From Patescibacteria group bacterium (lineage in GTDB: Bacteria; Patescibacteriota; Minisyncoccia; UBA6257; GWB1-50-10): a stretch of DNA of 49,538 bases. Of the stretch, positions 44 through 38,239 are shown piece after piece (within the stretch, counting starts at the first letter, position 1; each line of letters opens with the position of its first letter). The stretch is from the NCBI GenBank assembly GCA_030018585.1, contig JASEHZ010000002.1, positions 1 through 49,538 on the forward strand, read 5' to 3'. Below the pieces are notes generated by a model. The model saw only the letters and a list, made by a program, of their open reading frames with translations. It was not told the origin of the DNA and searched no databases. The translations under genes and the position numbers were made by a program.

Positions 44-544
44 ATGAACTTCCAGGTACCGCAATTTATAGACGAGCAAGCCAAAATTATTGGCTTTTTA
101 ACCTTAAAACAATTTGGTTTTATTGCCGTTGCTTTTATTATTGCGCTTATTTCTTTTTATTATTTTACTCTTCCGCTTGCCTTAATTATCACGATTATTG
201 TCGGCGCTCTTGCTTTAGTTTTGGCTTTCTTAAAAATAAACGGCCAACCCCTTCCCAAAATCATTATGGCCGGCATCTCTTATTTATGGAGCCCGAGAAT
301 TTACACTTGGCAAAGAGCAATGAAAGAAACCTCGCTTGATGTTTCGGCTCTGGAAAAACTCGAAGCCGCCCGAAGAAACGTGAGCATCCAGCAAAAAATA
401 AAATCAATCGCGTTGTCAATTACAACAAGCAGGTTTTTTTCGCCTGCCCAAATGCGCGAAAAAGACAAAAAAGACAAACTTCAAGTCGTAAGTTTTTCAA
501 CCGGCGAACGTAAATTCGCCAAACGCATTGATTATAAACAATAA
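44..544 (+). CDS. PrgI/VirB3-like small membrane protein of the T4SS-like cluster
   Basis: The N-terminus MNFQVPQFIDEQAKIIGFLTLKQF followed by two hydrophobic helices resembles the PrgI family. A GGGTGAGGG purine tract lies before the ATG. The gene sits directly upstream of the VirB4-like genes. Confidence 0.55.
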   Translation: MNFQVPQFIDEQAKIIGFLTLKQFGFIAVAFIIALISFYYFTLPLALIITIIVGALALVLAFLKINGQPLPKIIMAGISYLWSPRIYTWQRAMKETSLDVSALEKLEAARRNVSIQQKIKSIALSITTSRFFSPAQMREKDKKDKLQVVSFSTGERKFAKRIDYKQ

Positions 545-588
545 AAGCAAAGACACTTATTTAAGTTATAATAGATTTATCTAATACA

Positions 589-1242
589 ATGGAACCTTCA
601 TTACCAACCCAAAAATTCGTTGACATAAAAAACGTTAAAAACGGGGTTGTTTTTCTTAAAAATAATGGCTTACGGAAAATTTTGATTGTCAGCGGAGTTA
701 ATTTTGATTTAAAATCTGAAGCTGAACAAACTTTAATTTTAAACACTTTTCAAAATATGATAAACGCTTTGGATTTTTCCGTTCAATTTTTTATCCACTC
801 GCGGAAAATAAACGTTGACGAATATCTCGCGAGCATGCTTTCAAGAAAAGATAAAGAAACAAACGAACTTCTCAAAATCCAAATCGGAGAATACGTTGAA
901 TTTATTCGTTCTTTTGTTCAGGAAAACGCCATTATTTCAAAAACTTTTTTTGCAATTGTTCCCTATGATCCTATATCCGTTTCGTCTGAAGCTCAAAGTT
1001 TTTTAAATAGCTTAAAAACAATCATTAAAAAACCGGAAAAAGGACAAAACGCTGAAAGCGACAACACTCAAAAAAACCTAGAGCAGCTTGACCATCGGGT
1101 CAATCAGGTTATTGACGGCTTGGAACAAATAGGTCTAAGAGCGGTGGCCTTGGAAGACGAAGAAATCACAGAACTTTTCTACAATCTTTATAACCCCCAG
1201 CTCATTGAAAAAAAAGGTTTAAGTATCGCTAAAACAACATGA
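589..1242 (+). CDS. VirB4-like N-terminal domain encoded as a separate ORF
   Basis: The text VDIKNVKNGVVFLKNNGLRKILIVSGVNFDLKSEAEQTLILNTFQNMINALDFSVQF matches the usual N-terminal region of Gram-positive-type VirB4/PrgJ ATPases. Its stop overlaps the next start in an ATGA junction at 1239-1242. Confidence 0.5.
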   Translation: MEPSLPTQKFVDIKNVKNGVVFLKNNGLRKILIVSGVNFDLKSEAEQTLILNTFQNMINALDFSVQFFIHSRKINVDEYLASMLSRKDKETNELLKIQIGEYVEFIRSFVQENAIISKTFFAIVPYDPISVSSEAQSFLNSLKTIIKKPEKGQNAESDNTQKNLEQLDHRVNQVIDGLEQIGLRAVALEDEEITELFYNLYNPQLIEKKGLSIAKTT

Positions 1243-3029
1243 CAAGCAAAATTAAAATACCTCAACCCTATAAACCAACCTCGGAAGACGTAGCGAATAT
1301 TATTGCGCCGGCTGGTCTTGAAGCAAGTCCTAATTTCATGAAATTGGGCGATTATTATGCGAAAACTCTTTTTGTGTTCACTTACCCCAGATATATTTCA
1401 AGTGGCTGGTTTTCGCCGATTATTAATTTGGCCGAAATGATGGATATCTCAATTTTTACTCATCCAATGGATACGGCTCTTGCCTTAAGAAACTTAAGGA
1501 AAAAAGTCGCCCAAGTCCAAGCCGAAATGAGTGAACGGGAAGAGAAAGGATTGGTTCGCGATCCTGTTTTAGAAACCGCTTATCAGGATATTGAAAATCT
1601 GCGGGACGCCCTGCAACAAGCCCGGGAAAAACTTTTTAGAGTCGGGGTCTATATTACAATTTACGGCAAAGACTTAGAAGAACTAAACAAGCTGGAAAAC
1701 AAAATTGAAAACATGCTTGAAGCAAAACTTGTTTACGTAAAACCTGCTCTTTTTAAACAAGTTGACGGGTTCGCCTCAACCCTTCCGCTTTGCCAAGACA
1801 AACTTTTAATTCACACTGCCTTAAATTCAGGCCCCTCTTCTTCGCTTTTTCCTTTTGTTTCGCCTGATTTGACTTCGGACAAAGGCATTCTCTACGGCGT
1901 TAATATGCACAATGCCAGTCTTATAATTTTCGACCGATTTTCTCTTGAAAACGCCAACTCGGTTGTTTTTGCCAAATCCGGCGCCGGAAAATCTTACGCC
2001 ACCAAACTCCAAATCTTGCGTTCGCTTATGGTCGGCACAAACGTCATTGTTATTGACCCAGAAAACGAATATCAGAACTTATCAAACGCGATTGGCGGCA
2101 GTTATTTTAAAATTTCCTTAACTTCGCCGAGCCACATCAATCCTTTTGACATTCCGATTATCCCAGAGGGGGAAGAGCCGGCCGATGTTTTCAAATCCCA
2201 CGTTTTAAACCTGACTGGTTTAGTTAAATTAATGCTCGGCGCAATTACACCCGAAGAAGATAGCTTACTTGATCGCGCCATTACCGAAACCTACGCTTCA
2301 AGAGACATTACTGCTGATTCTTTCGGTTCTCTGCAAAAAGAATTAAACCCGCCGCTTTTAGAAGACCTGCAAACGGTTTTAAAAAATACTGAAGGGGGCG
2401 CAAGTCTTGCTCAACGGCTTGAAAAATTCACCCACGGCTCTTACGCGGGCTTTACCAACGCCCCCACTAATATTGATATCAAGAACCGGTTTATTGTTTT
2501 CTCAATCAGGGACCTGGAAGAAGAATTGCGGCCCATTGCCATGTATATAGTTTTGAATTTTGTCTGGAACTTGGTCCGGTCAGAACTAAAACAGCGCCTG
2601 ATGATTATTGACGAAGCCTGGTGGATGATGAAATACAAAGATTCGGCCGCATTCCTTTTCGGCCTTGTGAAACGCGCCCGGAAATATTATTTGGGCATTA
2701 CCACCATCACCCAAGATGTTGAAGATTTCCTAAAATCCGATTATGGCCGACCCATTGTCACAAATTCCTCAATCCAGTTCTTAATGAAACAATCAACCAC
2801 TTCTATCGGCTCGGTCGCCCAAGCTTTTGACTTAACTGAAAGCGAAAAAACTTTTTTGGTTGAAGCCGGAGTTGGCGAAGGATTGTTTTTCGCCGGCTTA
2901 AAACACGTAGCCATAAAAATTATTGCCTCTTACACCGAGGATCAAATTATTACTACCAACCCAGAACAAATGATTGAATTAAAAGGCTTGAAAAAAAACA
3001 ACCGAGAGAATGAACGAGGAACACAATAA
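1239..3029 (+). CDS. VirB4/TrbE-type type IV secretion ATPase (ATPase domain)
   Basis: Walker A is FAKSGAGKSYATK and Walker B is RLMIIDEAWWMM. The 596-aa ORF has a VirB4-like C-terminal region (TTITQDVEDF). Confidence 0.8.
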   Translation: MTSKIKIPQPYKPTSEDVANIIAPAGLEASPNFMKLGDYYAKTLFVFTYPRYISSGWFSPIINLAEMMDISIFTHPMDTALALRNLRKKVAQVQAEMSEREEKGLVRDPVLETAYQDIENLRDALQQAREKLFRVGVYITIYGKDLEELNKLENKIENMLEAKLVYVKPALFKQVDGFASTLPLCQDKLLIHTALNSGPSSSLFPFVSPDLTSDKGILYGVNMHNASLIIFDRFSLENANSVVFAKSGAGKSYATKLQILRSLMVGTNVIVIDPENEYQNLSNAIGGSYFKISLTSPSHINPFDIPIIPEGEEPADVFKSHVLNLTGLVKLMLGAITPEEDSLLDRAITETYASRDITADSFGSLQKELNPPLLEDLQTVLKNTEGGASLAQRLEKFTHGSYAGFTNAPTNIDIKNRFIVFSIRDLEEELRPIAMYIVLNFVWNLVRSELKQRLMIIDEAWWMMKYKDSAAFLFGLVKRARKYYLGITTITQDVEDFLKSDYGRPIVTNSSIQFLMKQSTTSIGSVAQAFDLTESEKTFLVEAGVGEGLFFAGLKHVAIKIIASYTEDQIITTNPEQMIELKGLKKNNRENERGTQ

Positions 3030-3375
3030 ATACAAAGAAGTGGAAATGCTTTTTGGCTGTCTTTTTACTTTAAGCGTTGACGGCGTTTGTTTCATTCTTG
3101 ATTGGACTGGGATCGGCGACATTATCACTCCTTTCATCCAAAGCGCTGGCACGGCATGTCTTTCTTTGTGGGCTTGGCGAAAAGGCGACAAAGCTTCGCT
3201 TAAATTCGGCCGACAAGCAGCAAAATACGCTTCCAACGCTCTGCCGTGGATTCCTACGCTCACTGCCATGTTCATAATAGAGACCTATATGCACAATCAT
3301 CCAGAAAAATTTGCTTTAGCTGAAAAAACCATAAATGCTGGTTCGGGTAAATCTGCTACTGCAGCAGTCAAATAA
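3010..3375 (+). CDS. small hydrophobic protein, T4SS-cluster associated
   Basis: The ORF overlaps the VirB4 3' end by 20 nt and has two predicted hydrophobic segments. An internal ATG at 3046 is an alternative start. Confidence 0.4.
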   Translation: MNEEHNKYKEVEMLFGCLFTLSVDGVCFILDWTGIGDIITPFIQSAGTACLSLWAWRKGDKASLKFGRQAAKYASNALPWIPTLTAMFIIETYMHNHPEKFALAEKTINAGSGKSATAAVK

Positions 3376-3406
3376 CGGGTTCCAAGCTATAATTAAATAA
3401 ATAACA

Positions 3407-4081
3407 ATGAAATTTATATCTATAATCATAATTTCTGTCCTAGTTGGATTTTTTGGACTATCTAGCTCTATTCTCGCCCAAACTGAATCCCAAGGAGAAA
3501 TAATTTTTACTTGGCAGGCTAAAAATTTCTACCCGGCCAATTTCGAAGGCAAAGCCCTACCAACCCAAAATTCCAACATAGACACTGCTTTAGAACTTCT
3601 AAAAGATAACAAACTTCAAGATTTGAGTAATGCCGCTATTACTTGGTTTTTGGATGGAAAAATTTTCAAAAAGGGGATTGGCTTTAAAGAAGCTTCTTTT
3701 ATAGCAAACAGGCCGGCCAGCGATTCGCATTTTATTAAAGTAACTATTGAATTGCAAAATGATTTTTACGAAAATTCTTTACGTCTTTATGTTTTCAATC
3801 CTAAAATCGCTATTTTAACAAAACCATTTTCCAGATACACAATTCCCGCCAACGCCGAATTCTCTCTTAGTGCCGTACCTTTCTTTTTTAACGTGGGGTC
3901 TTTTCAAGATCTTTTATTTTTCTGGCAAATCGGCTCAGAAAAAACAAGCGGCTCAAATGCCTTATCTTTGATATTCCAAAAAACGGAAAAAACCATTGAT
4001 GTTTCTGTGGCCATTCAAAACCAAAAAAACATTCTTGAAACAACAAAAGAATTGGTTTATTTGAATATAAAATCCCGTTAG
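3407..4081 (+). CDS. secreted protein of unknown function
   Basis: The N-terminal signal-like sequence is MKFISIIIISVLVGFFGLSSSILAQ. The TAG stop at 4079-4081 lies inside the left arm of repeat cassette E1. Confidence 0.55.
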   Translation: MKFISIIIISVLVGFFGLSSSILAQTESQGEIIFTWQAKNFYPANFEGKALPTQNSNIDTALELLKDNKLQDLSNAAITWFLDGKIFKKGIGFKEASFIANRPASDSHFIKVTIELQNDFYENSLRLYVFNPKIAILTKPFSRYTIPANAEFSLSAVPFFFNVGSFQDLLFFWQIGSEKTSGSNALSLIFQKTEKTIDVSVAIQNQKNILETTKELVYLNIKSR

Positions 4082-4191
4082 AGATAACTAAATTTTAATT
4101 ACTTTAATATTAATGACAAAACAAATAACATTATTATCACGCTCAACGGTCGGGTTTGCGGTCACCTTTGGTGACCTATCTCTAACGGGAT
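4072..4191. repeat. Inverted-repeat-framed cassette E1 (copy 1 of 3)
   Basis: The arms are perfect 15-nt inverted repeats: ATCCCGTTAGAGATA (4072-4086) and TATCTCTAACGGGAT (4177-4191). An inner hairpin GGTCACC-TTT-GGTGACC (4160-4176) abuts the right arm. The right arm includes the A and T of the ATG at 4190. Confidence 0.8.
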
Positions 4192-5710
4192 GAAAAAAAA
4201 TAATTCTTATCTTCTCATTCTTCTCGTCTTTTTTGTCTTTCTTTTCTCGTTTAATTTAATTTTCGCTCAAGGATTTAAATTTAATTTTCCGGGCGCGACC
4301 GCCGGCACTTCAAGCATTCAAGCTTATATTGTAAACTTCTACCAGTTCGGCCTTGCTATTGCCGGCATTTTGGCAGTCGGCATGATTGTGGCAGGCGCAA
4401 TTTATTACAGTTTATCCGGCGCAAGCCCCGACAAACAAAGCGAAGCAAAAGACATGATTACCTCCGCTATTTGGGGACTTATTCTTCTTTTTGGTTCTTA
4501 TTTAATCTTATCCACTATTAATCCTAATTTGGTGGTTTTGGATCTGCCTGGCCAAGGCAGCACTTCTTGCAGCGCCAAGAACGCGCCTAAACCCTGCGAA
4601 ACAAACGAAACACCAATTTATAACCAAAGTAATGGAACTTGCAATTGTTATATTCCTCTTCAAACAAACTGTTCTTTTCAACCAGAATTGCCATCTTGCA
4701 CGCCCGGTCAATCGGCTACAGATGATAAAGGAAACTGTGTTTGCAAGCCGGAAAAAACAGAAACAGCCAGCTGTCCGGGTGATTTTGCGCCGCTTGCTCC
4801 AGATCCAAACAATATCCCAGTTTACGCTTGGACAACGGATGTAAATATAATAAAAGCATTAAAGCCGAACAGGCTTCCTATTGACCCGAGCGCATGGCCT
4901 TATTTTTCTCGTTGTCCAAGGAAAGTAAAAATTAAAATTAGCGGTAGTGGCACTGATTTTTACACAATCGACTGCGACTCTTGTGAAGGCGGTTGGTCAC
5001 AAGCCAATGACGGACATCATATTACGACTTCAACTGACTGGACCACTGGTTGGCTTTGGCCATATTATCCTAAAAAACTCGACCTGAGCAAAGCTCTTTG
5101 TCTTATGTACGCTTGGTATAACCCCGAAGAAAGCGCGTTAGAAAAAGCTGATCTTGACGGCTTAAAAGCCTGCACTACTTTCAGCACCTCTACTTTAGTA
5201 AACATTCCTGTTCTTAAAGACGTGAAGCCTTGTTTAGCTTGCGTTGATTTTCCATTCCAAGTTGACACCCGAACCAATCCTTTTTCTCCAATCCCATCTC
5301 CAGTAATGATTCCATCAAAACCCATAGGTGAGGTATGCAACCCAAGCCTAACATCTTTAGACAAATGTATGGTGACTCCTGGTATAAAAACAAAGCTGAC
5401 TAAATTATATAATCAAACCAAAAATTGGAATGAGACGGGCAGACAAAATGAAGGCGACGCCTGGAATCAAAAAAACTTAAGCTGGGAAGTTACTGAAGTT
5501 TGGCCGCCAGCCGCTGCTCATCAAGACCCTTGTCATTATAACGGAACTTGCATTGACGTGGCTTTGCGCGAAAACGTTAATTGCAATAATGTTGCTGTTT
5601 TTAAAAATTTAGCGCAAAATGCCGGCGGTTTTTGGGTAAAAAATGAATATCCTGACTGCGGCGGCGCAACAACCCCCAATTGGACTGGCGGCCATTTTCA
5701 CTTAAAATAA
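4190..5710 (+). CDS. T4SS pilin-like (VirB2/TrbC-like) N-terminal domain fused to a Cys-rich region and a putative LAS-type Zn-peptidase C-terminus
   Basis: After a signal sequence come two hydrophobic helices, IVNFYQFGLAIAGILAVGMIVAGAIYYSLSG and ITSAIWGLILLFGSYLILSTINP, as in TrbC/VirB2-type pilins. The middle of the protein carries many Cys. The C-terminus has CHYNGTCIDVAL (from 5519) and GGHFHLK, resembling the H-x2-G-x-A-x-D and H-x-H motifs. Confidence 0.65.
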   Translation: MKKNNSYLLILLVFFVFLFSFNLIFAQGFKFNFPGATAGTSSIQAYIVNFYQFGLAIAGILAVGMIVAGAIYYSLSGASPDKQSEAKDMITSAIWGLILLFGSYLILSTINPNLVVLDLPGQGSTSCSAKNAPKPCETNETPIYNQSNGTCNCYIPLQTNCSFQPELPSCTPGQSATDDKGNCVCKPEKTETASCPGDFAPLAPDPNNIPVYAWTTDVNIIKALKPNRLPIDPSAWPYFSRCPRKVKIKISGSGTDFYTIDCDSCEGGWSQANDGHHITTSTDWTTGWLWPYYPKKLDLSKALCLMYAWYNPEESALEKADLDGLKACTTFSTSTLVNIPVLKDVKPCLACVDFPFQVDTRTNPFSPIPSPVMIPSKPIGEVCNPSLTSLDKCMVTPGIKTKLTKLYNQTKNWNETGRQNEGDAWNQKNLSWEVTEVWPPAAAHQDPCHYNGTCIDVALRENVNCNNVAVFKNLAQNAGGFWVKNEYPDCGGATTPNWTGGHFHLK

Positions 5711-5729
5711 ACAATTAATAATAAGTAAT

Positions 5730-6884
5730 ATGCGGCCAATAATCAAAATTTTAATAATAGCTATTATCCTTGTTATTGCTGGTTTTATTGTCTACTGGAT
5801 TTGGAATAAAATAACCGATCAAACCGAACCGCCAACAGAGTCTCAAATTCCAACCTCAACCGTGCCGACAATACCGCCTGTCGGCGCGGACTTAAAACTT
5901 AAAAAATTATCAGATTTAACAGTTTTTGATTTTGTGATAAGCAATGCGGGAGAAATATTTTATTTTTCAGAAGACGGCAAGGTTTTAAACGCCAAAGAAG
6001 GATCAGATATTGAAATTCTAAGCCAGACAGTAAGTGCTTTAAATTTCATTGAAAAAGCGCCGGGCAGTGAGAAAATTCTTGCGGCTTTTGAAGACCCTAA
6101 AAACCCAAGCTGGGGCATTTTTGATTTAATTGATAAGGTCTGGCGACCGCTGCCGCAAGAAATCATAAACGCAACCTGGGGCGAGAAAAGCACAGAACTG
6201 ATCACGCTTATTAAAAACAAAAACGAAATAAATCTTTCTTATTTAGACGTCTCAAAACCGCAACCGGCTCAAAAAATTATTATTAAAGATTTTAAATTGA
6301 AAGACTTAAAACTTGTTTTTAAATCGCCTCAAACTCTTTTATTAATTGAAAAACCGTCAAATGAATATTTGGGCCGGGCTTGGCAACTAGATTTGAAAAA
6401 ACTAACCTTAAATTTAATTATAGGCCCGGAAAAAGGGCTCGTGCTTAAATGGTCTGATGATAAAAGTCTTGCTTTAAAATTTAGTTCGCCCGATAATCTT
6501 TTGGTTTTGGATCAAAATTTAAAAATTTTAACCCCGCCAGTTTTTTCCACCCTGCCTCAAAAATGCGCTTTTGTTGCTTCCAAAAAACTTATCTATTGCT
6601 TCGTTCCTCAAGAATCTACGGCTGATTCAAAATTTGTTCTTCCTGACGATTATTTAATGGAGCGGCTCCTTACGGTTGATAATCTTATTTCACTAAACCT
6701 TGAAACCGATGAAACGACCAAAATTTTCTCTTCTGGTTATGACCCTGTAAGCCCAGTTGATGTTAGAAACCCGCAAGTTTTAGGCAATTCAATTTATTTT
6801 ATTAACCGCTACGATAATTATATTTACAAACTGGAACTTCCTGAACAAATGAAAGAAGAAGGTCTATTCCTGCCGAATCCTTAA
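5730..6884 (+). CDS. N-terminally membrane-anchored extracytoplasmic protein, unknown function
   Basis: It has a single N-terminal TM segment (IIKILIIAIILVIAGFIVYWIW) followed by a Pro/Thr linker and a 330-aa domain. It is the last gene of the T4SS-like block. Confidence 0.6.
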   Translation: MRPIIKILIIAIILVIAGFIVYWIWNKITDQTEPPTESQIPTSTVPTIPPVGADLKLKKLSDLTVFDFVISNAGEIFYFSEDGKVLNAKEGSDIEILSQTVSALNFIEKAPGSEKILAAFEDPKNPSWGIFDLIDKVWRPLPQEIINATWGEKSTELITLIKNKNEINLSYLDVSKPQPAQKIIIKDFKLKDLKLVFKSPQTLLLIEKPSNEYLGRAWQLDLKKLTLNLIIGPEKGLVLKWSDDKSLALKFSSPDNLLVLDQNLKILTPPVFSTLPQKCAFVASKKLIYCFVPQESTADSKFVLPDDYLMERLLTVDNLISLNLETDETTKIFSSGYDPVSPVDVRNPQVLGNSIYFINRYDNYIYKLELPEQMKEEGLFLPNP

Positions 6885-7332: not shown

Positions 7333-7998
7333 TTATTTTTTGATTTTCTTATTTATATAAAACTGCTGCAGGATTGAAAAAGTTGTTGAAGTAAACCAAT
7401 AAACTCCTAAGGCCGCTGGTAGAGCGCTCAAAACAAAAAACGTGATAATAGGACCAATCCAAACCATGGCTTTTCCTGTCATTATCATAGGATTCGGACT
7501 TTTGTCTTGGTTGGTTTGTTTTGGTAAAGAAAGCTTGCCTTGATAATACTGCAAAAGGGCCGTGATTAAAGTAACGGATAAATTCTTTTCGTTTAAACTA
7601 ATCAATCCTAAAAAGGAGTGGGTATCGAACGTCGAGGTTTCCAATTCCTTATTAAACAATTGAAATAAAGCAATGAAAACCGGCAGCTGAATTAACAAAA
7701 GAAAGAAACCAGAAAAAGGGTTTAGTTTGTTTTCTTTATAAAGACTCATTAAGGCCTTTGCTTGTTTTTCTTTGTCGTTTTTATGATCGGTTTGAATTTT
7801 TTTTATCTGGGGCTGTAATTGTTGCATGATGGTTTGATCCTTGGCGCCTTTATAAAAAAGCGGGAAAAGAACGGTTCTTACCAAAAGAGTGAGGATAATA
7901 ATAGAAACGCCAAGATCTTGAAAAGCAATGTTTTGATAAATAAAAACAAGAACCGATAAAATTGGTTCGTAAATATAACTATTAAATAAAGCAGTCAT
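7333..7998 (-). CDS. yidC: membrane protein insertase YidC (short form)
   Basis: It occupies the rnpA-yidC-jag position. Motifs include LLVRTVLFPL, QPQIKKIQ and LPVFIALF, in a multi-TM protein. Confidence 0.85.
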   Translation of the reverse strand: MTALFNSYIYEPILSVLVFIYQNIAFQDLGVSIIILTLLVRTVLFPLFYKGAKDQTIMQQLQPQIKKIQTDHKNDKEKQAKALMSLYKENKLNPFSGFFLLLIQLPVFIALFQLFNKELETSTFDTHSFLGLISLNEKNLSVTLITALLQYYQGKLSLPKQTNQDKSPNPMIMTGKAMVWIGPIITFFVLSALPAALGVYWFTSTTFSILQQFYINKKIKK

Positions 7999-8003
7999 GT
8001 TTT

Positions 8004-8264
8004 TTAAAATTTAAAAGCTTTTATTATTTCTTGTTTTAATTCTTTGAAATTTAATCTTGTTATTTCCGGTTTTGTTATAATTGTGTATACAAATTCCGGA
8101 TTTTTTAAAAATTCTCTTGCGATAACCCTAATTCTCCGTTTGATCTTATTCCTTAAAACAGCCTTTTTAGAAACTGTCCGTCCGACAACGATAATTAAGA
8201 ACTTTTTGTTTCTGGGGTCTTTTTTTGATTTTTTTACAATTAAAAACGCCACGGATACAAACAC
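8004..8264 (-). CDS. rnpA: ribonuclease P protein component
   Basis: It contains the RNR-like motif AVLRNKIKRRIR and sits between rpmH and yidC. The start is GTG. Confidence 0.75.
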   Translation of the reverse strand: MFVSVAFLIVKKSKKDPRNKKFLIIVVGRTVSKKAVLRNKIKRRIRVIAREFLKNPEFVYTIITKPEITRLNFKELKQEIIKAFKF

Positions 8265-8271
8265 AAAAGAC

Positions 8272-8406
8272 CTACAAAGCTATTCTTTTCCTACCCGCCT
8301 GACGCCTTCTTTTAAGAACTGCTCGTCCGCCCGGCGTTCTCTTTCTTTTTAAAAAACCGTGAGTTTTCCTTCTTTTTTTCTTTTTCGGCTGAAAAGTTAC
8401 GCTCAT
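8272..8406 (-). CDS. rpmH: 50S ribosomal protein L34
   Basis: Hand translation of the minus strand gives [44 protein letters not shown] (44 aa). The ORF is too short for the supplied ORF track. Confidence 0.85.
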
Positions 8407-8642
8407 AAAAATAGTTTTTTCTCCCGACTTTTTGCTGTTTGTTTGGTAAACTTATTATAAATGAACTCTGTTTTTTCGCAACCTTTTTGTTTTTTTGCTC
8501 AAATTTTTCATTAAAAAGTTATTAACAAACAGTCCACAATTAAAGCACAAAATTATTTTCTAAACAACATTGAAACTTTCTAAAATATGGTTATGATTAA
8601 TTCCAAAATCATAAACGCAACCGTCGATAATAAAAAACTTTT

Positions 8643-10016
8643 ATGAATCCTAAAGACCTTTGGAATTCGGTGCTTGGTGAAATAGAGCTTCAAATTTCTA
8701 AGCCTAACTTTTTAACTTGGTTTAAAAACAGCGAACTTGTTGAGAAAAAAGAAAAAGAAGGTCTGGTTTTTGTAAGTCTTCCTAATAATTTTGCAAAAGA
8801 GTGGATAAAAAACCGTTATCATAAGCTTATTTTAGGTTCTTTGCGCACTTTGGACGGATCAATAAAAAGCGTGGAATATGTTGTTCGAACACAAAACTTA
8901 AACCCCCTAACTATTCCAGTCCCGAATTCTAAAAAAACTTTTTCTGTTTCCGAAGAAATCCAACCTATTTTGATCGAAAGCAAAATAGACCCGAAAACAA
9001 ATTTAAATCCACGCTATTCTTTAAAAAACTTTATTGTTGGCTCTTCTAATGAATTGGCTTACGCCGCGATTCAAGCGGTTGTTAAAGATGTCGGCATAAA
9101 ATATAATCCTCTTTTTATCTATGGCGGGGTTGGTCTTGGAAAAACCCACCTTCTTCAGGCGGCTGGAAATGCTATTAAAGATAAATCCGAAAAAATTAAT
9201 ATTCTTTATATTTCATCAGAAAAATTCATAAACGATGTTGTCTGGGCTATTCGTAATAAACGAACCGAGGACATGAAAAAGAAATACCGCGACGTTGATG
9301 TTCTTATTATTGATGACATTCAATTCATTGGTGGCAAAACTACAACAGAATTAGAATTTTTTTATACCTTTAATGTCCTCTATGAAAACAATAAACAAAT
9401 AATTCTTTCTTCCGACCGTCCGCCGGCTGCTATCCCCACCCTCGAAGAAAGACTAAGATCCCGTTTTCAGGTCGGTATGGTGGCTGATATTGGTTATCCA
9501 GATTATGAAATGCGCTTGGCGATTTTAAAAACCAAAATTTCTAATCAACAACTAAGAATCGAGGATAAAATTCTTGAACAAATAGCCACCAAGGTCCAGA
9601 AAAATATAAGAGAATTGGAAGGTGTTTTAAATAAAGTTGTTTTTTACCAACAGTTCAAAGGAGAAAAAATAGATAATAAAAAACTCGAAGAAATTATAAA
9701 CGAAACTATTCAAGTTTCAGCCAAAAACGTTACTGCTAATGAAATTATAAAAGCTGTGGCGGATTTTTTTGAAATTTCTCAATCTAATTTAACTGAACGA
9801 AGCCGAAAGCAAGAAATAGTTGAACCTAGACAAATTACAATGTTTCTGCTTCGCGAACTACTCAAGCTTTCCTATCCTCATATCGGGGAGTGTTTGGGCA
9901 AACGCGACCATACCACCGCTATTCATGCCTACGAAAAAATATTAAAAGAAATAAATCAAAATCCGGCGTTAAATCAAAAAATTCTCTTAATAAAAGAACG
10001 GGTGTATAAAATGTAA
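8643..10016 (+). CDS. dnaA: chromosomal replication initiator DnaA
   Basis: Walker A is GGVGLGKTHLLQA. There is an AAA+ box VII region and a C-terminal DNA-binding helix (RKQEIVEPRQITMFLLRE). The gene is divergent from rpmH. Confidence 0.95.
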   Translation: MNPKDLWNSVLGEIELQISKPNFLTWFKNSELVEKKEKEGLVFVSLPNNFAKEWIKNRYHKLILGSLRTLDGSIKSVEYVVRTQNLNPLTIPVPNSKKTFSVSEEIQPILIESKIDPKTNLNPRYSLKNFIVGSSNELAYAAIQAVVKDVGIKYNPLFIYGGVGLGKTHLLQAAGNAIKDKSEKINILYISSEKFINDVVWAIRNKRTEDMKKKYRDVDVLIIDDIQFIGGKTTTELEFFYTFNVLYENNKQIILSSDRPPAAIPTLEERLRSRFQVGMVADIGYPDYEMRLAILKTKISNQQLRIEDKILEQIATKVQKNIRELEGVLNKVVFYQQFKGEKIDNKKLEEIINETIQVSAKNVTANEIIKAVADFFEISQSNLTERSRKQEIVEPRQITMFLLRELLKLSYPHIGECLGKRDHTTAIHAYEKILKEINQNPALNQKILLIKERVYKM

Positions 10017-10186
10017 ATAAATTGTGTAAAAATATTAATTATCCTCCTGAAAAATTTAAAACAAAGAAAGATATGCGCTTTTTACTTTTTTAATTTTCTA
10101 CTCTGTACAATGCTTTTTGAAACTTTTCCACTTATTCACATTACTATTACTACCACTAAAGATAATAATAAAGATAATAATAAAAA
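10017..10186. promoter_or_regulatory. candidate oriC segment (dnaA-dnaN intergenic)
   Basis: Two DnaA-box-like 9-mers lie together: TTTTCCACT (10124-10132) and TTATTCACA (10132-10140). They are followed by a perfect tandem 12-mer AAAGATAATAAT x2 (10158-10181) in very AT-rich DNA. Confidence 0.35.
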
Positions 10187-11302
10187 ATGAAATTAATAAT
10201 TCTTAGAAATAATCTTTTAAGAGCTTTCGGAACAGAAGAGCGGGTAATTAGCAATAATGTAAATTTACCCATTTTAAAAAATATTTTTCTAGAAGCTCAA
10301 GAAGGAAAAATTATTCTTACAGCAACCGATTTAGAACTAGCAATTCAATACAATCTGTCAGGAAAAATAATAGAAAGCGGTTCTGTTGTTATGCCGTTTT
10401 TTATTATCAATTCAATTATTAAAAATTTAACCAGCGAAAGGGTAAATATTGAAGAAAAAGAAAAAAAGATATTTTTAAGTACCGATAATTATGAAGCAGT
10501 AATTCAAGGACAAAGCCCGAAAGAGTTCCCGATTATTCCGTCAATTCATAATAATAAACAATTTGTAAAAATTTCTGTAGCTTTTTTAAAAGAAGCTTTA
10601 GAAAACGTTATTGGAGCAACTCAATATTCAGAAATTAGACCGGAAATAAGCGGTGTTTTTGTAAAATTTTTTGACGAAAAAATGTTTTTTGTGGCAACAG
10701 ATAGTTTTCGTTTGGCGGAAAAAAGCTTGGGAAAAAACCAATTTCAAACATCGTTTGATAATTTTTCGGCTATTATTCCTTTAAAAACAGCCGAAGAATT
10801 ATTGAGAGCATTAAGCGGTTTAGATGGTGACGATGAGAACGTCGAAATTTTTATAGATCTTAATCAAATTTTATTTAAAACAAACGTTTGGCAAATCACT
10901 TCCCGTCTTATTGATGGGAAATTTCCGGAATATCAGGGAGTTATTCCAAAAGAAACGAAAACCGAAGTTACTTTAAATAAACAAGAATTTATAAACGCAA
11001 TAAAATTAACCAGCACTTTTGCCGGAAGGACGCAGGATGTTTCAATTAAAAGCGGAGAAAACAGAAAATATATTGAACTTACATCATCAGACAGCTCGTT
11101 AGGAGAAAACAAATACCAAGTACTTTCAAAAGTAAAAGGAGAAAAGGTTTCTGTAACCTTTAATTGGCGGTACCTTATTGAAGGGTTAAAAATTTACAAA
11201 AGCGAGGAAATTGTTTTGGGAGCCAATTTAACAGGACCAGCCGTAATTAAGAATCCAAACGACAATTCTCTTATTTATGTATTGATGCCTATAAAGAATT
11301 AG
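10187..11302 (+). CDS. dnaN: DNA polymerase III beta sliding clamp
   Basis: It is the 371-aa ORF directly after dnaA. Typical clamp text includes ATDSFRLAE and SRLIDGKFPEY. Confidence 0.9.
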   Translation: MKLIILRNNLLRAFGTEERVISNNVNLPILKNIFLEAQEGKIILTATDLELAIQYNLSGKIIESGSVVMPFFIINSIIKNLTSERVNIEEKEKKIFLSTDNYEAVIQGQSPKEFPIIPSIHNNKQFVKISVAFLKEALENVIGATQYSEIRPEISGVFVKFFDEKMFFVATDSFRLAEKSLGKNQFQTSFDNFSAIIPLKTAEELLRALSGLDGDDENVEIFIDLNQILFKTNVWQITSRLIDGKFPEYQGVIPKETKTEVTLNKQEFINAIKLTSTFAGRTQDVSIKSGENRKYIELTSSDSSLGENKYQVLSKVKGEKVSVTFNWRYLIEGLKIYKSEEIVLGANLTGPAVIKNPNDNSLIYVLMPIKN

Positions 11303-22708: not shown

Positions 22709-23518
22709 ATGAAAAACTTTGTGTTTTTTCTTGTAATGATTTTTGCACTTACTGTATCGGTAAATGCTCAAATTGAATTTGGCATCAAAGTTACCCTTGA
22801 TCCGGACGGCGCTCTAAAAAGACTTGGGATTGGACAAGGAACAGATGTAATTATTGAAAATAACAATCCGTTTTATGCCAGATTATTTTCTGGAAATAAG
22901 CTTGTTGGGGTTTTGGTTCCTGGTCAAACTGCGATTGCGCGTAATATTACAACCGGATTTGATCAGACACCGTTAGCGTTAGTGGCAAAAATGTATTCTG
23001 ATGAAAATTATCAGAATTTCGTTGGTGCATCAGGTATAATTATTTGGATAAATGGAAACCCAGCTTATTCAGGAGATCGTGTAAAAAGATGGGTAATTGA
23101 TTTTGGAGCCATTACTTTTGTTGATAACAGGTATTCTTATTATCAAAACGGGTATGGAAATCTTGCGTATCCGTTTCCGAAAAATATGAGTCCAATCTTA
23201 ATAAAGCTTCCGACCTTGCCTTTGAGATCTATTACTGAGTGGCAGTTTGTTAATGTTACTTTGTATGATGCAGTAATCGAAATAAGCGGAGTGCCGGTTG
23301 TTAGATTGGCTTCTGGTGCAATCTATTACGATTGGAAAGCAAATGATAGAAGCTACGAGCTGCAAGCTCAGATAGTAGTAAGATTTTGTCAGGGTGATTT
23401 GCAGATTGGCCGTTGGGATGGTGGCAGTTTTGAAATAGCGGCTGGTGGAAATCTAAATTCTCATCCGCATGCTCTCCAGTATCTGTTGGGTCCTGATAAA
23501 AATCAGCGACCGTATTAG
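22709..23518 (+). CDS. secreted protein of unknown function
   Basis: It has a signal peptide (MKNFVFFLVMIFALTVSVNAQ), its own strong promoter and its own terminator. No recognised motifs. Confidence 0.6.
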   Translation: MKNFVFFLVMIFALTVSVNAQIEFGIKVTLDPDGALKRLGIGQGTDVIIENNNPFYARLFSGNKLVGVLVPGQTAIARNITTGFDQTPLALVAKMYSDENYQNFVGASGIIIWINGNPAYSGDRVKRWVIDFGAITFVDNRYSYYQNGYGNLAYPFPKNMSPILIKLPTLPLRSITEWQFVNVTLYDAVIEISGVPVVRLASGAIYYDWKANDRSYELQAQIVVRFCQGDLQIGRWDGGSFEIAAGGNLNSHPHALQYLLGPDKNQRPY

Positions 23519-23531
23519 TTAAGTGGTATTT

Positions 23532-23564
23532 GTCCCGTTTCGCAAGAAACGGGACATTTTTATT
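23532..23564 (+). terminator. intrinsic terminator
   Basis: GTCCCGTTT-CGCAAG-AAACGGGAC is followed by ATTTTTATT, 14 nt after the stop at 23518. Confidence 0.7.
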
Positions 23565-30590: not shown

Positions 30591-30714
30591 TATAAATCCT
30601 TATATTTGGTTGTAAGATTCTGTTGTAATTATACATTTTAATAAATTGAAAGTCAAGACTTGTTTTAAAATCATAGCTTATTTAGTTCGTTGGTTTATAA
30701 TAATTAAGGGATTT

Positions 30715-30836
30715 ATCCCGTTAGAGACAATAATTCCATGATTTTCAAAACAAGCCTTATGATATATAAGAAAAGTCGATTGCCGTTAAAACGGCTGATT
30801 TACGGTCGTCCGAAGACGACCTGTCTCTAACGGGAT
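30715..30836. repeat. Inverted-repeat-framed cassette E2 (copy 2 of 3)
   Basis: The arms are perfect 15-nt repeats: ATCCCGTTAGAGACA (30715-30729) and TGTCTCTAACGGGAT (30822-30836). An inner hairpin GGTCGTC-CGAA-GACGACC (30804-30821) abuts the right arm. The ATG at 30835 is inside the arm. Confidence 0.8.
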
Positions 30837-32190
30837 GAAACTTACTTTTTGTGGTGGGGCAAAGTCAGTAACAGGTTCCAATTATTTACTTGAATCTGGA
30901 GGCAAGAAAATTTTAATTGATTGCGGACTTCATCAGGGCGGTTCTTATTCTGAATCCCAGAATTTTGAACCATTTCCTTATAAACCGGAGGAAATTGAAG
31001 CGGTTTTTATTACTCATGCTCATATCGATCATATTGGTCGTTTGCCTCAGTTTTGCCGGGCGGGTTTTAGGGGTCAGATTTTTTCAACGCCGCCCACTAA
31101 GGATTTTGGTGAATTTTTACTGTTAGATTCTGAGCATATTCTTCGGGAAGAAGCGCAAAAACGGAAAAAGCCGCCGCTTTATGAGATTAGCGATGTGGTA
31201 GCGACCATGGCTTTGTGGCACAAAGTTTCTTATCACGAAAAAACAAACATTTCTGGTTTTGAAATTGAATTTTTTGATGCTGGTCATATTTTAGGTTCAA
31301 GTTCGATTGTTATTTCTGTTGAAGGCAAGCGAATAGTTTTTTCCGGAGATTTGGGCAATAATCCGTCGCCATTTATCAATTCAACGGAATATATTGAAAA
31401 TGTTGATTACGCGCTTATTGAATCGGTTTACGGCAATAGGATTCATGAAGAAGTGGATCGTCGTAAGGAAATCCTGGAAGATTTAATTGAAGATACGGTA
31501 AAAAACATGGGTGTTTTTTTGATTCCGGCTTTTGCTCTGGAACGGACTCAGGAAATGATTTTTGAGCTTAATGGACTTGTTGAAAATGGTCGGATTCCCA
31601 GAGCGCCGGTTTTTATTGATAGTCCCTTAGCCATAAAACTTACAGCCGTTTACCAGAAATATTCTGAAAATCCGCTGTATTTTAATTCAGAGTCAATGAG
31701 ATTATTAAAAAAAGGTGATGCAATATTTAATTTCCCCGGACTTAAGATGGCGCTCACCACCGAGCAATCTAAGGACATAAATAACGTGCCGCCGCCAAAA
31801 GTTATTATTGCCGGTTCCGGCATGTCAAATGCCGGAAGAATTTTACATCACGAGTTGCTTTATTTATCAGATCCCAAGAATACGATTTTGATTATCGGTT
31901 ATCAAGCCAGCGGATCGCTCGGTCGAAACTTAATTGATGGTGCGAAAACTGTGAAAATTTTTGGGAAAACCGTTTCTGTTGGATGTAAAACAGAATCGAT
32001 CAGCGGTTATTCGGCGCATGCGGATCAGAACCAGCTCTTAAAATGGGTAGAACCGATGCGTTTAAGTGTTAAAAAAGTTTTTGTGGTTCAAGGCGAAGAA
32101 GATCAGGCCTTACCGTTAGCCCAGAAAATAAGAGATGAATTAGCGGTTGAAACCGAAGTTCCTTCACCGGGCGATACCGTGGTGTTATAA
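30835..32190 (+). CDS. MBL-fold beta-CASP ribonuclease (CPSF/RNase J-like)
   Basis: The N-terminus is MKLTFCGGAKSVTGSNYLL and the HxHxDH motif is HAHIDHIGRLP. A beta-CASP and C-terminal region (SAHAD) follow. Confidence 0.85.
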   Translation: MKLTFCGGAKSVTGSNYLLESGGKKILIDCGLHQGGSYSESQNFEPFPYKPEEIEAVFITHAHIDHIGRLPQFCRAGFRGQIFSTPPTKDFGEFLLLDSEHILREEAQKRKKPPLYEISDVVATMALWHKVSYHEKTNISGFEIEFFDAGHILGSSSIVISVEGKRIVFSGDLGNNPSPFINSTEYIENVDYALIESVYGNRIHEEVDRRKEILEDLIEDTVKNMGVFLIPAFALERTQEMIFELNGLVENGRIPRAPVFIDSPLAIKLTAVYQKYSENPLYFNSESMRLLKKGDAIFNFPGLKMALTTEQSKDINNVPPPKVIIAGSGMSNAGRILHHELLYLSDPKNTILIIGYQASGSLGRNLIDGAKTVKIFGKTVSVGCKTESISGYSAHADQNQLLKWVEPMRLSVKKVFVVQGEEDQALPLAQKIRDELAVETEVPSPGDTVVL

Positions 32191-38133: not shown

Positions 38134-38239
38134 GCCCCGTTAGATATCAAATTTTAAGCGCAAGGCGTTGGTTAGATATTTTGCGGGGCGAGATAATCTT
38201 ATAAATATGCAAGGGATACTAAGAATATCTAACGGGGTG
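38134..38239. repeat. Inverted-repeat-framed cassette E3 (copy 3 of 3, divergent)
   Basis: The arms are perfect 13-nt repeats: CCCCGTTAGATAT (38135-38147) and ATATCTAACGGGG (38225-38237). A second direct copy, GTTAGATATT, lies at 38171-38180. The final G of the right arm is the first base of the GTG at 38237. Confidence 0.7.

What the first reader, a model, noticed from the sequence alone, without database searches (positions are those of the whole stretch)
30715..30837. Cassette E2: compensatory base changes in the inner hairpin relative to E1
E2 has the same 15-nt arms as E1 apart from one complementary pair (ATA/TAT becomes ACA/TGT). Like E1, it ends on an ATG-AAA start, here of a beta-CASP RNase. 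The hairpin next to the right arm is GGTCGTC-CGAA-GACGACC in E2 and GGTCACC-TTT-GGTGACC in E1. Two adjacent base pairs therefore differ by fully compensatory substitutions (A-T to G-C, C-G to T-A), while position and stem length are kept. This implies selection on pairing rather than on sequence. The interior also holds a small hairpin, GCCG-TTAAAA-CGGC (30782-30795). Its halves mimic the arm cores CCGTTA and AACGG, so they could compete with the outer stem. An extended -10-like TG-A-TATATA lies at 30760-30768. The left arm is not preceded by an ORF, so stop/start coupling cannot be the general function of the family.
Basis: seen in the sequence. Interest (0 to 1): 0.75.

Follow-up and report, generated by a model that had tools for sequence, protein, structure and literature searches.

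The report
Mobile palindromic insert rebuilding start codons
The "cassette" in front of the RNase gene is one copy of a small palindromic jumping-DNA element, apparently undescribed, found in many uncultured bacterial phyla; it lands at gene starts and rebuilds the start codon, and its stems are kept by compensatory mutations.

Summary
E2 (30715-30836) and E1 (4072-4191) share 15-nt inverted arms that end on an ATG. Each has a hairpin beside the right arm, and the two hairpins differ by two fully compensatory base pairs.

A public-genome scan found at least 125 more copies, mostly in Patescibacteria but also in Omnitrophota, Planctomycetota and others. Across 59 aligned copies all 7 hairpin pairs covary, so selection on pairing is real.

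The element is not a regulator dedicated to these genes. It behaves as a MITE-like mobile insertion:
- It has conserved termini, YCCCGTTAGA...TCTAACGGGR.
- 82 of 126 copies carry 4-nt flanking direct repeats (TGAA, TAAA and similar).
- It forms tandem arrays.
- Two near-identical copies sit at unrelated loci in one genome.
- It lies upstream of unrelated genes.

Close relatives of this genome have empty sites at both the E1 and E2 positions. One relative has a decayed relic of E2.

In Patescibacteria the element sits in ATGAA, and its terminal A plus the duplicated TG rebuilds the start codon. Copies face the gene in sense orientation (41 vs 6).

I infer that the element is transcribed in the leader and folds into a closed helix. 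That helix either keeps the insertion harmless or lets it be processed. No transposase was found, and no expression data exist.

The parts
30715..30836 (+). E2: complete palindromic element (MITE-like), sense to the downstream beta-CASP gene
   Evidence: best covariance-model hit in the window, 93.4 bits
30715..30729 (+). E2 left arm ATCCCGTTAGAGACA. The core CCCGTTAGA is invariant in the family; the inner 4-6 nt covary with the right arm.
30822..30836 (+). E2 right arm TGTCTCTAACGGGAT. Its last two bases, AT, are the first two bases of the start codon.
30804..30821 (+). E2 subterminal hairpin GGTCGTC-CGAA-GACGACC. It abuts the right arm with no linker, so it can stack coaxially on the terminal stem. 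A conserved AC precedes it (30802-30803).
30773..30801 (+). E2-subfamily inner module AAGTCGATT-GCCGTTAAAACGGC-TGATTT, which includes the small hairpin at 30782-30795. It is shared with L054, L109, L013, L033, L014 and L067 and is retained in the L120 relic.
30835..32190 (+). Beta-CASP / metallo-beta-lactamase RNase gene. Its ATG is completed by the element's terminal AT.
30696..30701 (+). TATAAT, candidate -10 box of the gene, 13 nt upstream of the left arm. It is conserved in L120 and matches the TATAAT 12 nt before the ATG at the empty sites L121 and L122. This places the element inside the transcribed leader (inferred).
4072..4191 (+). E1: second intact copy (arms 4072-4086 and 4177-4191; hairpin 4160-4176). 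The stop codon of the upstream ORF (TAG 4079-4081) lies in the left arm, and the ATG at 4190 of a pilin-like gene is completed by the right arm.
38135..38237 (+). E3: diverged third copy with arms CCCCGTTAGATAT / ATATCTAACGGGG (AGAGA to AGATA, compensated by TCTCT to TATCT). It has no clear subterminal hairpin. Its terminal G starts the GTG at 38237 of an O-antigen-ligase-like (Wzy_C) gene.

Best explanation
E2, with E1 and the diverged E3, is a copy of a roughly 105-130-bp non-autonomous palindromic mobile element (MITE-like). The family is widespread in Patescibacteria and also occurs in Omnitrophota, Planctomycetota and other phyla.

Anatomy (shown). The termini YCCCGTTAGA...TCTAACGGGR are invariant. 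They are extended by 4-6 covarying base pairs. The interior is variable and usually AT-rich. In most copies a hairpin of 6-10 bp, free in sequence but fixed in position, abuts one arm.

Insertion behaviour (shown). Copies sit at TRAA-type tetranucleotides at the 5' edge of translation-initiation regions, usually between 4-nt direct repeats. In Patescibacteria the site is ATGAA, so the terminal A (or G) plus the duplicated TG rebuilds the start codon. In phyla that use Shine-Dalgarno sequences the element sits just 5' of the Shine-Dalgarno sequence.

In this lineage (shown). E1 and E2 are insertions that close relatives lack.

How it works (inferred). The promoter lies upstream of the left arm, so the element is transcribed as part of the leader. 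The arms zip into a 15-18-bp stem that continues coaxially into the adjacent hairpin, giving about two helical turns. This loops the insertion out of the mRNA. It thereby stays harmless to initiation at the rebuilt AUG, or becomes a substrate for a double-strand RNase (RNase III) that trims the leader back. Copies and orientations that fold this way survive. That would explain the compensatory changes, the sense-orientation bias and the excess of G.U over A.C.

The enzyme that mobilises the element is unknown.
For: Family and anatomy.
- One capped scan returned 119 loci holding 125 copies.
- The arms are 97.8% paired. The terminal pair is U-A in 37 copies and C-G in 20; pair 15-146 is U-A in 39 and C-G in 19.
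- All 7 hairpin pairs change on both sides, and 0 of 500 shuffles reach the observed covariation score.
- Further copies found with the covariance model show arm covariation: AGAAA/TTTCT, AGAAG/CTTCT, AGATA/TATCT.
- A GC-rich hairpin anchored beside an arm occurs in 82 of 126 copies against 61 of 630 shuffled interiors.

Transposon hallmarks.
- Identical 4-nt direct repeats flank 82 of 126 copies; shuffled pairing of flanks gives a mean of 10.8 and a maximum of 23.
- Tandem arrays are separated by 6 nt.
- L056 and L066, from one MAG, are 99.2% identical over the element plus 8 and 5 flanking nt, with unrelated flanks beyond that.
- Homologous housekeeping genes occur with and without the element in different genomes.

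Empty sites and a relic.
- The beta-CASP orthologues at 88% and 77% identity show TATAAT, 12 nt, then ATG, with no element.
- At the E1 site the two ORFs overlap (ATGA) or lie 5 nt apart in relatives.
- The 89% relative has an orthologous relic. It keeps ATGAAT in the left flank, and every arm change is C>T or G>A.

Position and orientation.
- 68 copies abut a start codon, and 52 of these have a second start codon in the left flank.
- C..G-ended copies lie 7-20 nt upstream of the start, just 5' of the Shine-Dalgarno sequence.
- The hairpin is gene-proximal in 41 copies and distal in 6, p = 2e-7.
- On the sense strand G.T pairs number 27 against 5 A.C.
- E1 lies on the opposite replichore from E2 and E3, yet all three are sense to their gene.
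Against: - No transposase or autonomous parent with these termini was found in about 0.9 Mb of flanking DNA, in phage records or viral contigs, or in plasmids.
- E1 and E2 themselves have no intact target duplication. E1 looks like a clean insertion between A and TG.
- E2 keeps consensus arms while the orthologous relic has decayed. This points to purifying selection in place, which a purely selfish element does not predict.
- The retrieval pattern forced 11 exact bases in each arm, so arm conservation is partly ascertainment.
- The sequences in the covariation alignment were chosen because they have a hairpin.
- The taxonomic spread rests on MAG bins.
- Transcription, folding in vivo and processing are all inferred.
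Confidence: 0.7

Rival explanations
1. A host-serving, possibly domesticated, cis-regulatory leader RNA. The arms are recognised by a trans-acting protein or RNA, and the structure gates translation of the downstream gene, for example as a switch between the outer stem and internal arm-like segments.
For: - E2 keeps consensus arms and its hairpin, whereas the orthologous copy in a relative that shows no intact copies in the sequence available has decayed.
- The arm core is invariant in sequence, not only in pairing.
- Many interiors hold partial arm copies (CCGTTA..) that could pair alternatively.
- There is a strict position next to start codons and a sense-orientation bias.
Against: - The downstream genes are unrelated: RNase, pilin, O-antigen ligase, RuvC, L9, exonuclease III and others.
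- Close relatives express the same genes without the element.
- There are direct repeats, tandem arrays and near-identical copies at unrelated loci.
- There is no Rfam match.
- Loop and interior sequences are not conserved across the family.
Confidence: 0.15
2. A single-strand-DNA element in the style of IS200/IS605 PATEs or REPINs. The hairpins are recognised as folded DNA by an HUH/Y1 transposase, and the covariation and strand bias reflect DNA folding, not RNA folding.
For: - The subterminal hairpin has free sequence but a fixed position and a conserved foot (AC-GG...CC-T).
- Wobble pairs are strand-asymmetric.
- There is an orientation bias.
- The long palindrome would fold in single-stranded DNA.
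Against: - Variable flanking direct repeats (TGAA, TGGA, TGAG, TAAA, TCAA) indicate a staggered cut and duplication, which HUH elements do not make.
- True terminal inverted repeats are present.
- E1 and E2/E3 lie on opposite replichores with the same sense orientation (n = 3).
- No Y1 transposase gene was seen near copies.
Confidence: 0.1
3. A double-stranded-DNA protein site, such as an operator pair or a site-specific recombination site of the attC or dif type, rather than a mobile element or an RNA.
For: - The terminal boxes are conserved while the centre is variable, which superficially resembles integron attC sites.
- GTTAGAG and CTCTAAC resemble the attC core and inverse-core boxes (sequence).
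Against: - The order of the boxes is the reverse of attC (GTTRRRY-like on the left, RYYYAAC-like on the right) on either strand.
- No integrase or common neighbouring gene was found.
- Covariation of a sequence-free hairpin has no role in duplex DNA binding.
- There is insertion polymorphism with direct repeats.
Confidence: 0.04

Closest known systems
Correia / NEMIS elements of Neisseria (bacterial MITE)
   Same: It is a 100-200-bp non-coding element with terminal inverted repeats and many copies. It mostly lies immediately upstream of genes and is co-transcribed. The inverted-repeat stem in the mRNA is cleaved by RNase III, which affects expression (review PMC10969869). This is the closest analogue for how E2 probably works.
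   Different: Here the termini are different and only 9-10 bp are invariant. The flanking repeats are 4 nt (TGAA/TAAA type), not TA. The insertion is exact at the start codon and rebuilds it. There is a covarying subterminal hairpin. The family is distributed across phyla rather than within one genus. Neither an IHF site nor a promoter has been shown.
REPINs / REP-BIME elements mobilised by RAYT transposases
   Same: Two conserved short sequences lie in inverted orientation around a less conserved spacer. Together they fold into a long hairpin of about 100 nt, are maintained within genomes, and are often in transcribed intergenic DNA.
   Different: The arms here are not themselves palindromic REPs and lack the GTAG/CGTC tag (PMC3733652 listed). 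Direct repeats flank the element. No RAYT gene was seen.
ERIC/IRU and Rickettsia palindromic elements (RPE)
   Same: They are imperfect palindromes of 120-150 bp, are transcribed, and are tolerated at positions that keep genes working. RPEs insert in frame within ORFs.
   Different: E2-type copies do not become part of the protein. They sit at the initiation codon and replace its first base.
Integron attC sites
   Same: Structure is conserved while sequence is free in the centre. There are short conserved terminal boxes, and the size is 57-141 bp.
   Different: The box order is reversed. There is no cassette array and no integrase. Direct repeats and start-codon placement are present here.
Programmed translational bypass / shunt (T4 gene 60, mitochondrial byp elements, CaMV shunt)
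   Same: In 52 of 68 start-abutting copies, an upstream AUGNN and an identical downstream AUGNN flank a stable stem. This resembles the take-off and landing sites of bypass systems (from my own knowledge of those systems).
   Different: E1 and E2 have lost the upstream AUG. There is no evidence of bypass. Ordinary initiation at the downstream AUG suffices.

Membership tests
MITE (non-autonomous DNA transposon) | Terminal inverted repeats | tested here: met
   The arms are 15 nt in E1 and E2. In the family the arms are 97.8% paired with an invariant core.
MITE (non-autonomous DNA transposon) | Target-site duplication flanking the element | tested here: met
   In the family, 82 of 126 copies have identical 4-nt direct repeats, against 10.8 expected from shuffled pairing. 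E1 and E2 have none intact. The L120 relic of E2 keeps ATGAA.
MITE (non-autonomous DNA transposon) | Small, no coding capacity, several copies per genome, including near-identical copies at unrelated sites | tested here: met
   There are 3 copies in this 49.5-kb window. L056 and L066 are 99.2% identical with unrelated flanks. Only short incidental uORFs are present.
MITE (non-autonomous DNA transposon) | Presence/absence polymorphism at orthologous sites | tested here: met
   The E2 site is empty in L121 and in L122/L123. The E1 site is empty in L124 and L125.
MITE (non-autonomous DNA transposon) | A cognate autonomous IS or transposase with the same termini | tested here: inconclusive
   None was found in the fetched loci, the window, phage records, viral contigs or plasmids. 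Whole genomes could not be searched for long elements.
Correia/NEMIS | TA target duplication and the Correia 26-bp inverted repeats | tested here: not met
   The direct repeats here are TGAA, TAAA, TGGA and similar. The termini are YCCCGTTAGA. The Correia features are taken from the literature and from my own knowledge.
REPIN / RAYT system | Arms that are themselves REP palindromes with a GTAG/CGTC tag, and a RAYT gene in the genome | tested here: not met
   The arm ATCCCGTTAGAGACA is not self-complementary and has no such tag. No Y1 transposase appeared among the neighbouring proteins. Whole genomes were not searched.
Integron attC | Inverse core RYYYAAC at the 5' end and core GTTRRRY at the 3' end | tested here: not met
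   Here GTTAGAG is on the left and CTCTAAC on the right, on both strands.
IS200/IS605-derived PATE | No terminal inverted repeats, no target duplication, insertion 3' of one fixed tetranucleotide | tested here: not met
   Terminal inverted repeats and variable direct repeats are present.
Curated cis-regulatory RNA families (Rfam 15), riboswitch-like | A match to a family model, and association with a defined gene set | tested here: not met
   Nothing reached gathering score, and only chance-level hits appeared at E <= 10. The downstream genes are unrelated.
Programmed translational bypass element | Matched take-off and landing codons flanking a stem, and bypass shown | not testable with these tools
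   Matched AUGNN flanks occur in 52 of 68 start-abutting copies but not in E1 or E2. No translation data exist.

The most novel reading that the evidence does not exclude
The family is a cross-phylum class of mobile inserts that behave like an 'intron of the translation start'. After landing in ATGAA of short-leader or leaderless genes, the transcript-level palindrome (terminal stem stacked on the hairpin, about 22 bp) is either excised by RNase III, or skipped by ribosomes that load at the upstream AUG and resume at the rebuilt AUG. Expression then depends on the fold. This dependence would be why arms and hairpin are held by purifying selection in place.
Probability: 0.15. Interest if true: 0.85.

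Novelty: new variant of a known kind. Interest (0 to 1): 0.6.

Why it matters
Patescibacteria (CPR) have small genomes thought to be poor in mobile DNA and in known regulatory RNAs. A structured element that is shared across phyla, sits at the first base of the start codon and rebuilds it would be an unusual way for selfish DNA to coexist with essential genes.

The element also affects annotation. Gene callers will meet duplicated start codons and short uORFs (MNPVRD...).

It gives a natural system in which RNA-fold constraints on a transposon can be read from covariation. It also offers a handle on how translation starts in organisms that have short leaders and often no Shine-Dalgarno sequence. 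If the fold is processed or bypassed, that would be a new post-transcriptional way of neutralising insertions.

Tried and rejected
- Rfam at gathering score and at E <= 10: no family.
- Viral-contig scan with the two-arm pattern: 0 hits.
- BLAST of E2 against plasmids and phages: no meaningful hit.
- Search for long elements bounded by the arms (a possible autonomous parent) and inspection of solo arms: only noise, nested copies or decayed copies.
- Clustering of all ORFs in the 119 loci for a shared neighbouring gene: the largest cluster has 5 members, so there is no linked transposase.
- attC reading of the GTTAGAG/CTCTAAC boxes: rejected because the order is reversed.
- The 26-nt palindrome at 23531-23556, a weak model hit (12.9 bits): it is a terminator-like hairpin after an ORF, not a family member.
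- My first structure string was one column out of register and gave 43% pairing in the hairpin. It was corrected.
- Literature searches by sequence and by keywords found no description of this family.
- Exact look-up of the window's own protein in the assembly index: not on record.
Full report
**Observation.** E2 is as described. The arms are ATCCCGTTAGAGACA (30715-30729) and TGTCTCTAACGGGAT (30822-30836), 92 nt apart. The right arm runs into the ATG of a 451-aa beta-CASP / metallo-beta-lactamase gene. E1 (4072-4191) has the same arms except ATA/TAT in place of ACA/TGT, and it ends on the ATG at 4190. The hairpins are GGTCGTC-CGAA-GACGACC in E2 (30804-30821) and GGTCACC-TTT-GGTGACC in E1 (4160-4176). 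They differ by two adjacent, fully compensatory pairs. Both elements fold far better than shuffles (z = -8.1 and -6.4). A third copy, E3 (38135-38237), has the arm change AGAGA to AGATA compensated by TCTCT to TATCT. It ends on the GTG of an O-antigen-ligase-like gene. A covariance model built from the family finds only these three copies in the window.

**The family.**
- Of the 80 listed rows, about 43 are Patescibacteria, 14 Omnitrophota and 6 Planctomycetota. The rest include Elusimicrobiota, WOR-3, Thermodesulfovibrionia, a Deltaproteobacteria MAG, one Clostridia-labelled MAG and unclassified bins.
- There is no Rfam match, no hit in viral contigs, phages or plasmids, and no paper containing the arm sequence in a relevant context.

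**Anatomy and covariation.** I aligned 59 copies, oriented by the hairpin.
- The terminal stem is 97.8% paired.
- The terminal pair is U-A in 37 copies and C-G in 20. Pair 15-146 is U-A in 39 and C-G in 19.
- All 7 hairpin pairs change on both sides, and 96% of cells are paired. No shuffle of 500 reaches the observed covariation score, and sliding the partner column drops pairing to 37-46%.
- These 59 copies were chosen because they have a hairpin. As a control on all copies, a GC-rich hairpin anchored next to an arm occurs in 82 of 126 copies against 61 of 630 copies with shuffled interiors.
- The hairpin foot is conserved (AC before it, GG...CC, then T), and the hairpin abuts the arm with no linker.
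- The exact-pattern scan forces 11 bases per arm. Copies recovered instead with the model show that only CCCGTTAGA / TCTAACGGG is invariant, while the inner arm covaries: AGAAA/TTTCT, AGAAG/CTTCT.

**Flanks.**
- In 82 of 126 copies the 4 nt outside the terminal Y..R pair are identical on both sides. Shuffled pairing of flanks gives a mean of 10.8 and a maximum of 23.
- The repeats are TGAA (35), TAAA (18), TGGA (10), TGAG (6) and TCAA (4).
- Tandem copies are separated by exactly 6 nt, for example ATGAAT (L040, L007).
- 68 copies abut the start codon of an ORF of at least 60 aa. Of these, 52 have a second start codon in the left flank, in the form ATGNNY|CCCG...CGGG|RTGNN.
- The simplest reading is insertion into A|TGAA. 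The left copy keeps the original ATG, and the element's terminal A (or G) plus the duplicated TG makes a new ATG (or GTG).
- C..G-ended copies in phyla that use Shine-Dalgarno sequences lie 7-20 nt upstream of the start, directly 5' of the Shine-Dalgarno sequence, for example CGGG-GTAAAGGAG-N5-ATG.
- Shine-Dalgarno-like motifs are almost absent upstream of the left ATG (2 of 52). Hexamers resembling a -10 box are enriched 4-13 nt before it (13 of 34 against about 6 expected). At least some targets therefore appear to be short-leader or leaderless genes.

**Insertion polymorphism around this window.**
- The beta-CASP orthologue at 88% identity (L121, GCA_030017555.1) reads TATAAT-12 nt-ATGAAACTT with no element. 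The 77% orthologue (L122/L123, GCA_016234345.1) is likewise empty.
- The 89% orthologue (L120) has a relic at the same position. The promoter-proximal flank and an ATGAAT left repeat are kept, and inner blocks (ATGATTTTCAAAA, AAAAGTCGATT, AACGGCTGA) are kept.
- In that relic the left arm is TTTATTAAAGAT, the hairpin is lost and the right arm is GGTTTTTAAATAAA.
- Identity to E2 is 71% in the flank, 66% in the interior, 60% in the left arm, 47% in the hairpin and 46% in the right arm. Every left-arm change and 6 of 7 right-arm changes are C>T or G>A.
- At the E1 site, the two flanking ORFs overlap by ATGA in L124, which comes from the same sample as L120. They are 5 nt apart in L125. E1 is therefore an insertion absent even from the genome that carries the E2 relic.
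- No intact copy occurs in L120-L123.

**Mobility elsewhere.**
- L056 and L066, on two contigs of one MAG, are 99.2% identical over the element plus 8 and 5 flanking nt, and unrelated beyond that.
- Subfamilies share interiors across genomes and in front of different genes. The E2 subfamily includes L054, L109, L013, L033, L014 and L067.
- Homologous housekeeping genes (RuvC, L9, exonuclease III, a translation GTPase and others) carry the element in one genome and not in another.
- No protein family is shared among the neighbourhoods.

**Which strand or molecule is constrained.**
- Among start-abutting copies the hairpin is gene-proximal in 41 and distal in 6 (p = 2e-7). Copies that do not abut a start codon also mostly point at a co-directional downstream gene.
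- On the sense strand G.T pairs outnumber A.C 27 to 5. Within the hairpin alone the count is 12 to 3.
- The window contains dnaA and dnaN, and the cumulative GC-skew minimum lies at about 9-10 kb. E1 is therefore on the other replichore from E2 and E3, yet all three are sense to their gene. With n = 3 this only weakly favours a transcription-linked (RNA) constraint over a replication-linked (single-strand DNA) one.

**Explanation I commit to.**
- Shown: E2 is a copy of a mobile, non-coding palindromic element. It lies between the gene's probable -10 box (TATAAT, 30696-30701, conserved at the empty sites) and the start codon. Its stems are under selection for pairing.
- Inferred: the element is transcribed in the leader. 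The 15-18-bp terminal stem stacks on the adjacent hairpin to give about two helical turns. This closed fold either leaves the rebuilt AUG accessible or is trimmed by RNase III, as is known for Correia elements.
- Inferred: copies and orientations that fold this way are the ones retained.
- The intact arms of E2, set against the decayed relic, suggest purifying selection in place in this lineage. A purely selfish model does not predict that. I leave this partly unexplained; the possibilities are host dependence on the fold, a trans factor, or gene conversion.
- The mobilising enzyme is unknown.

**Comparison and novelty.** The element works like a bacterial MITE of the Correia/NEMIS type. It meets the MITE criteria I could test: terminal inverted repeats, target duplication, multiple copies, and insertion polymorphism. 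It is not a member of the Correia, REPIN, attC or PATE families. The points that differ from described cases are:
- exact placement on the start codon, with the codon rebuilt by the element's own end;
- a sequence-free, covarying subterminal hairpin;
- spread across several phyla.

I found no prior description, but the literature search was limited to open-access text.

Noticed in passing
window 38135-38237: E3 is a third, diverged copy of the element. Its arm variant is compensated (AGATA/TATCT), it has no clear subterminal hairpin, and it ends on the GTG start of a Wzy_C (O-antigen ligase-like) gene.
   Followed up: partly
window 7900-11302: This is a probable replication origin region. dnaA (about 8643-10016) and dnaN (about 10187-11302) lie next to an AT-rich stretch with several inverted repeats (7.9-8.8 kb). 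The cumulative GC skew has its minimum at about 9-10 kb. Upstream lie rnpA/yidC/R3H-type genes on the minus strand, as in relatives L124 and L125.
   Followed up: partly
L120 3391-3535: In the decayed relic of E2 the arms and hairpin have lost nearly all G/C by C>T and G>A changes. The inner motif AAAAGTCGATT...AAAACGGCTGA, however, is kept identical to E2. The same motif is conserved across the E2 subfamily in other genomes. Its role is unknown.
   Followed up: partly
L040 5473-5710; L007 5899-6278; L047; L059; L061: Elements form head-to-tail tandem arrays separated by exactly 6 nt (for example ATGAAT or GTAAAC). It looks as if new copies insert into the duplicated target of an existing copy.
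   Followed up: no
L006, L080, L111, L056, L066, L017, L039, L042, L104 (whole elements): A second subfamily occurs mostly outside Patescibacteria. Its arms are AGAGAA/TTCTCT. It has an internal copy of the right arm that can pair locally with the left arm, and two GC-rich hairpins sharing CCACCG/CGGTGG. Alternative pairings are therefore possible.
   Followed up: no
L003 5792-5824; L017 3403-3437: These are minimal 'arms-only' palindromes (CCCGTTAGAGA, a loop of 4-6 nt, TCTCTAACGGG). One of them is nested inside a full element.
   Followed up: no
window 23531-23556: GTCCCGTTTC-GCAA-GAAACGGGAC followed by ATTTTTATT is a terminator-like hairpin after the ORF that ends at 23518. It shares the CCCGTT core with the element arms, probably by chance.
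   Followed up: partly
window 44-6884: This is a co-directional cluster of type IV secretion / pilus-like genes: PrgI-like, TraC/VirB4-like with a TraG P-loop, and a 506-aa protein with a T4SS-pilin domain. E1 is inserted between two genes of this cluster. The pilin-like gene evolves fast (55% identity to the relative whose beta-CASP gene is 89% identical).
   Followed up: no
L-series loci, left flanks of start-abutting copies: The duplicated upstream start codon opens a short uORF that begins MNPVRD / MSPVRD / MDPVRD, encoded by the left arm. In some copies the uORF stops at the TAA inside the right arm or at a TGA overlapping the main ATG. Gene callers may mis-annotate these starts.
   Followed up: partly
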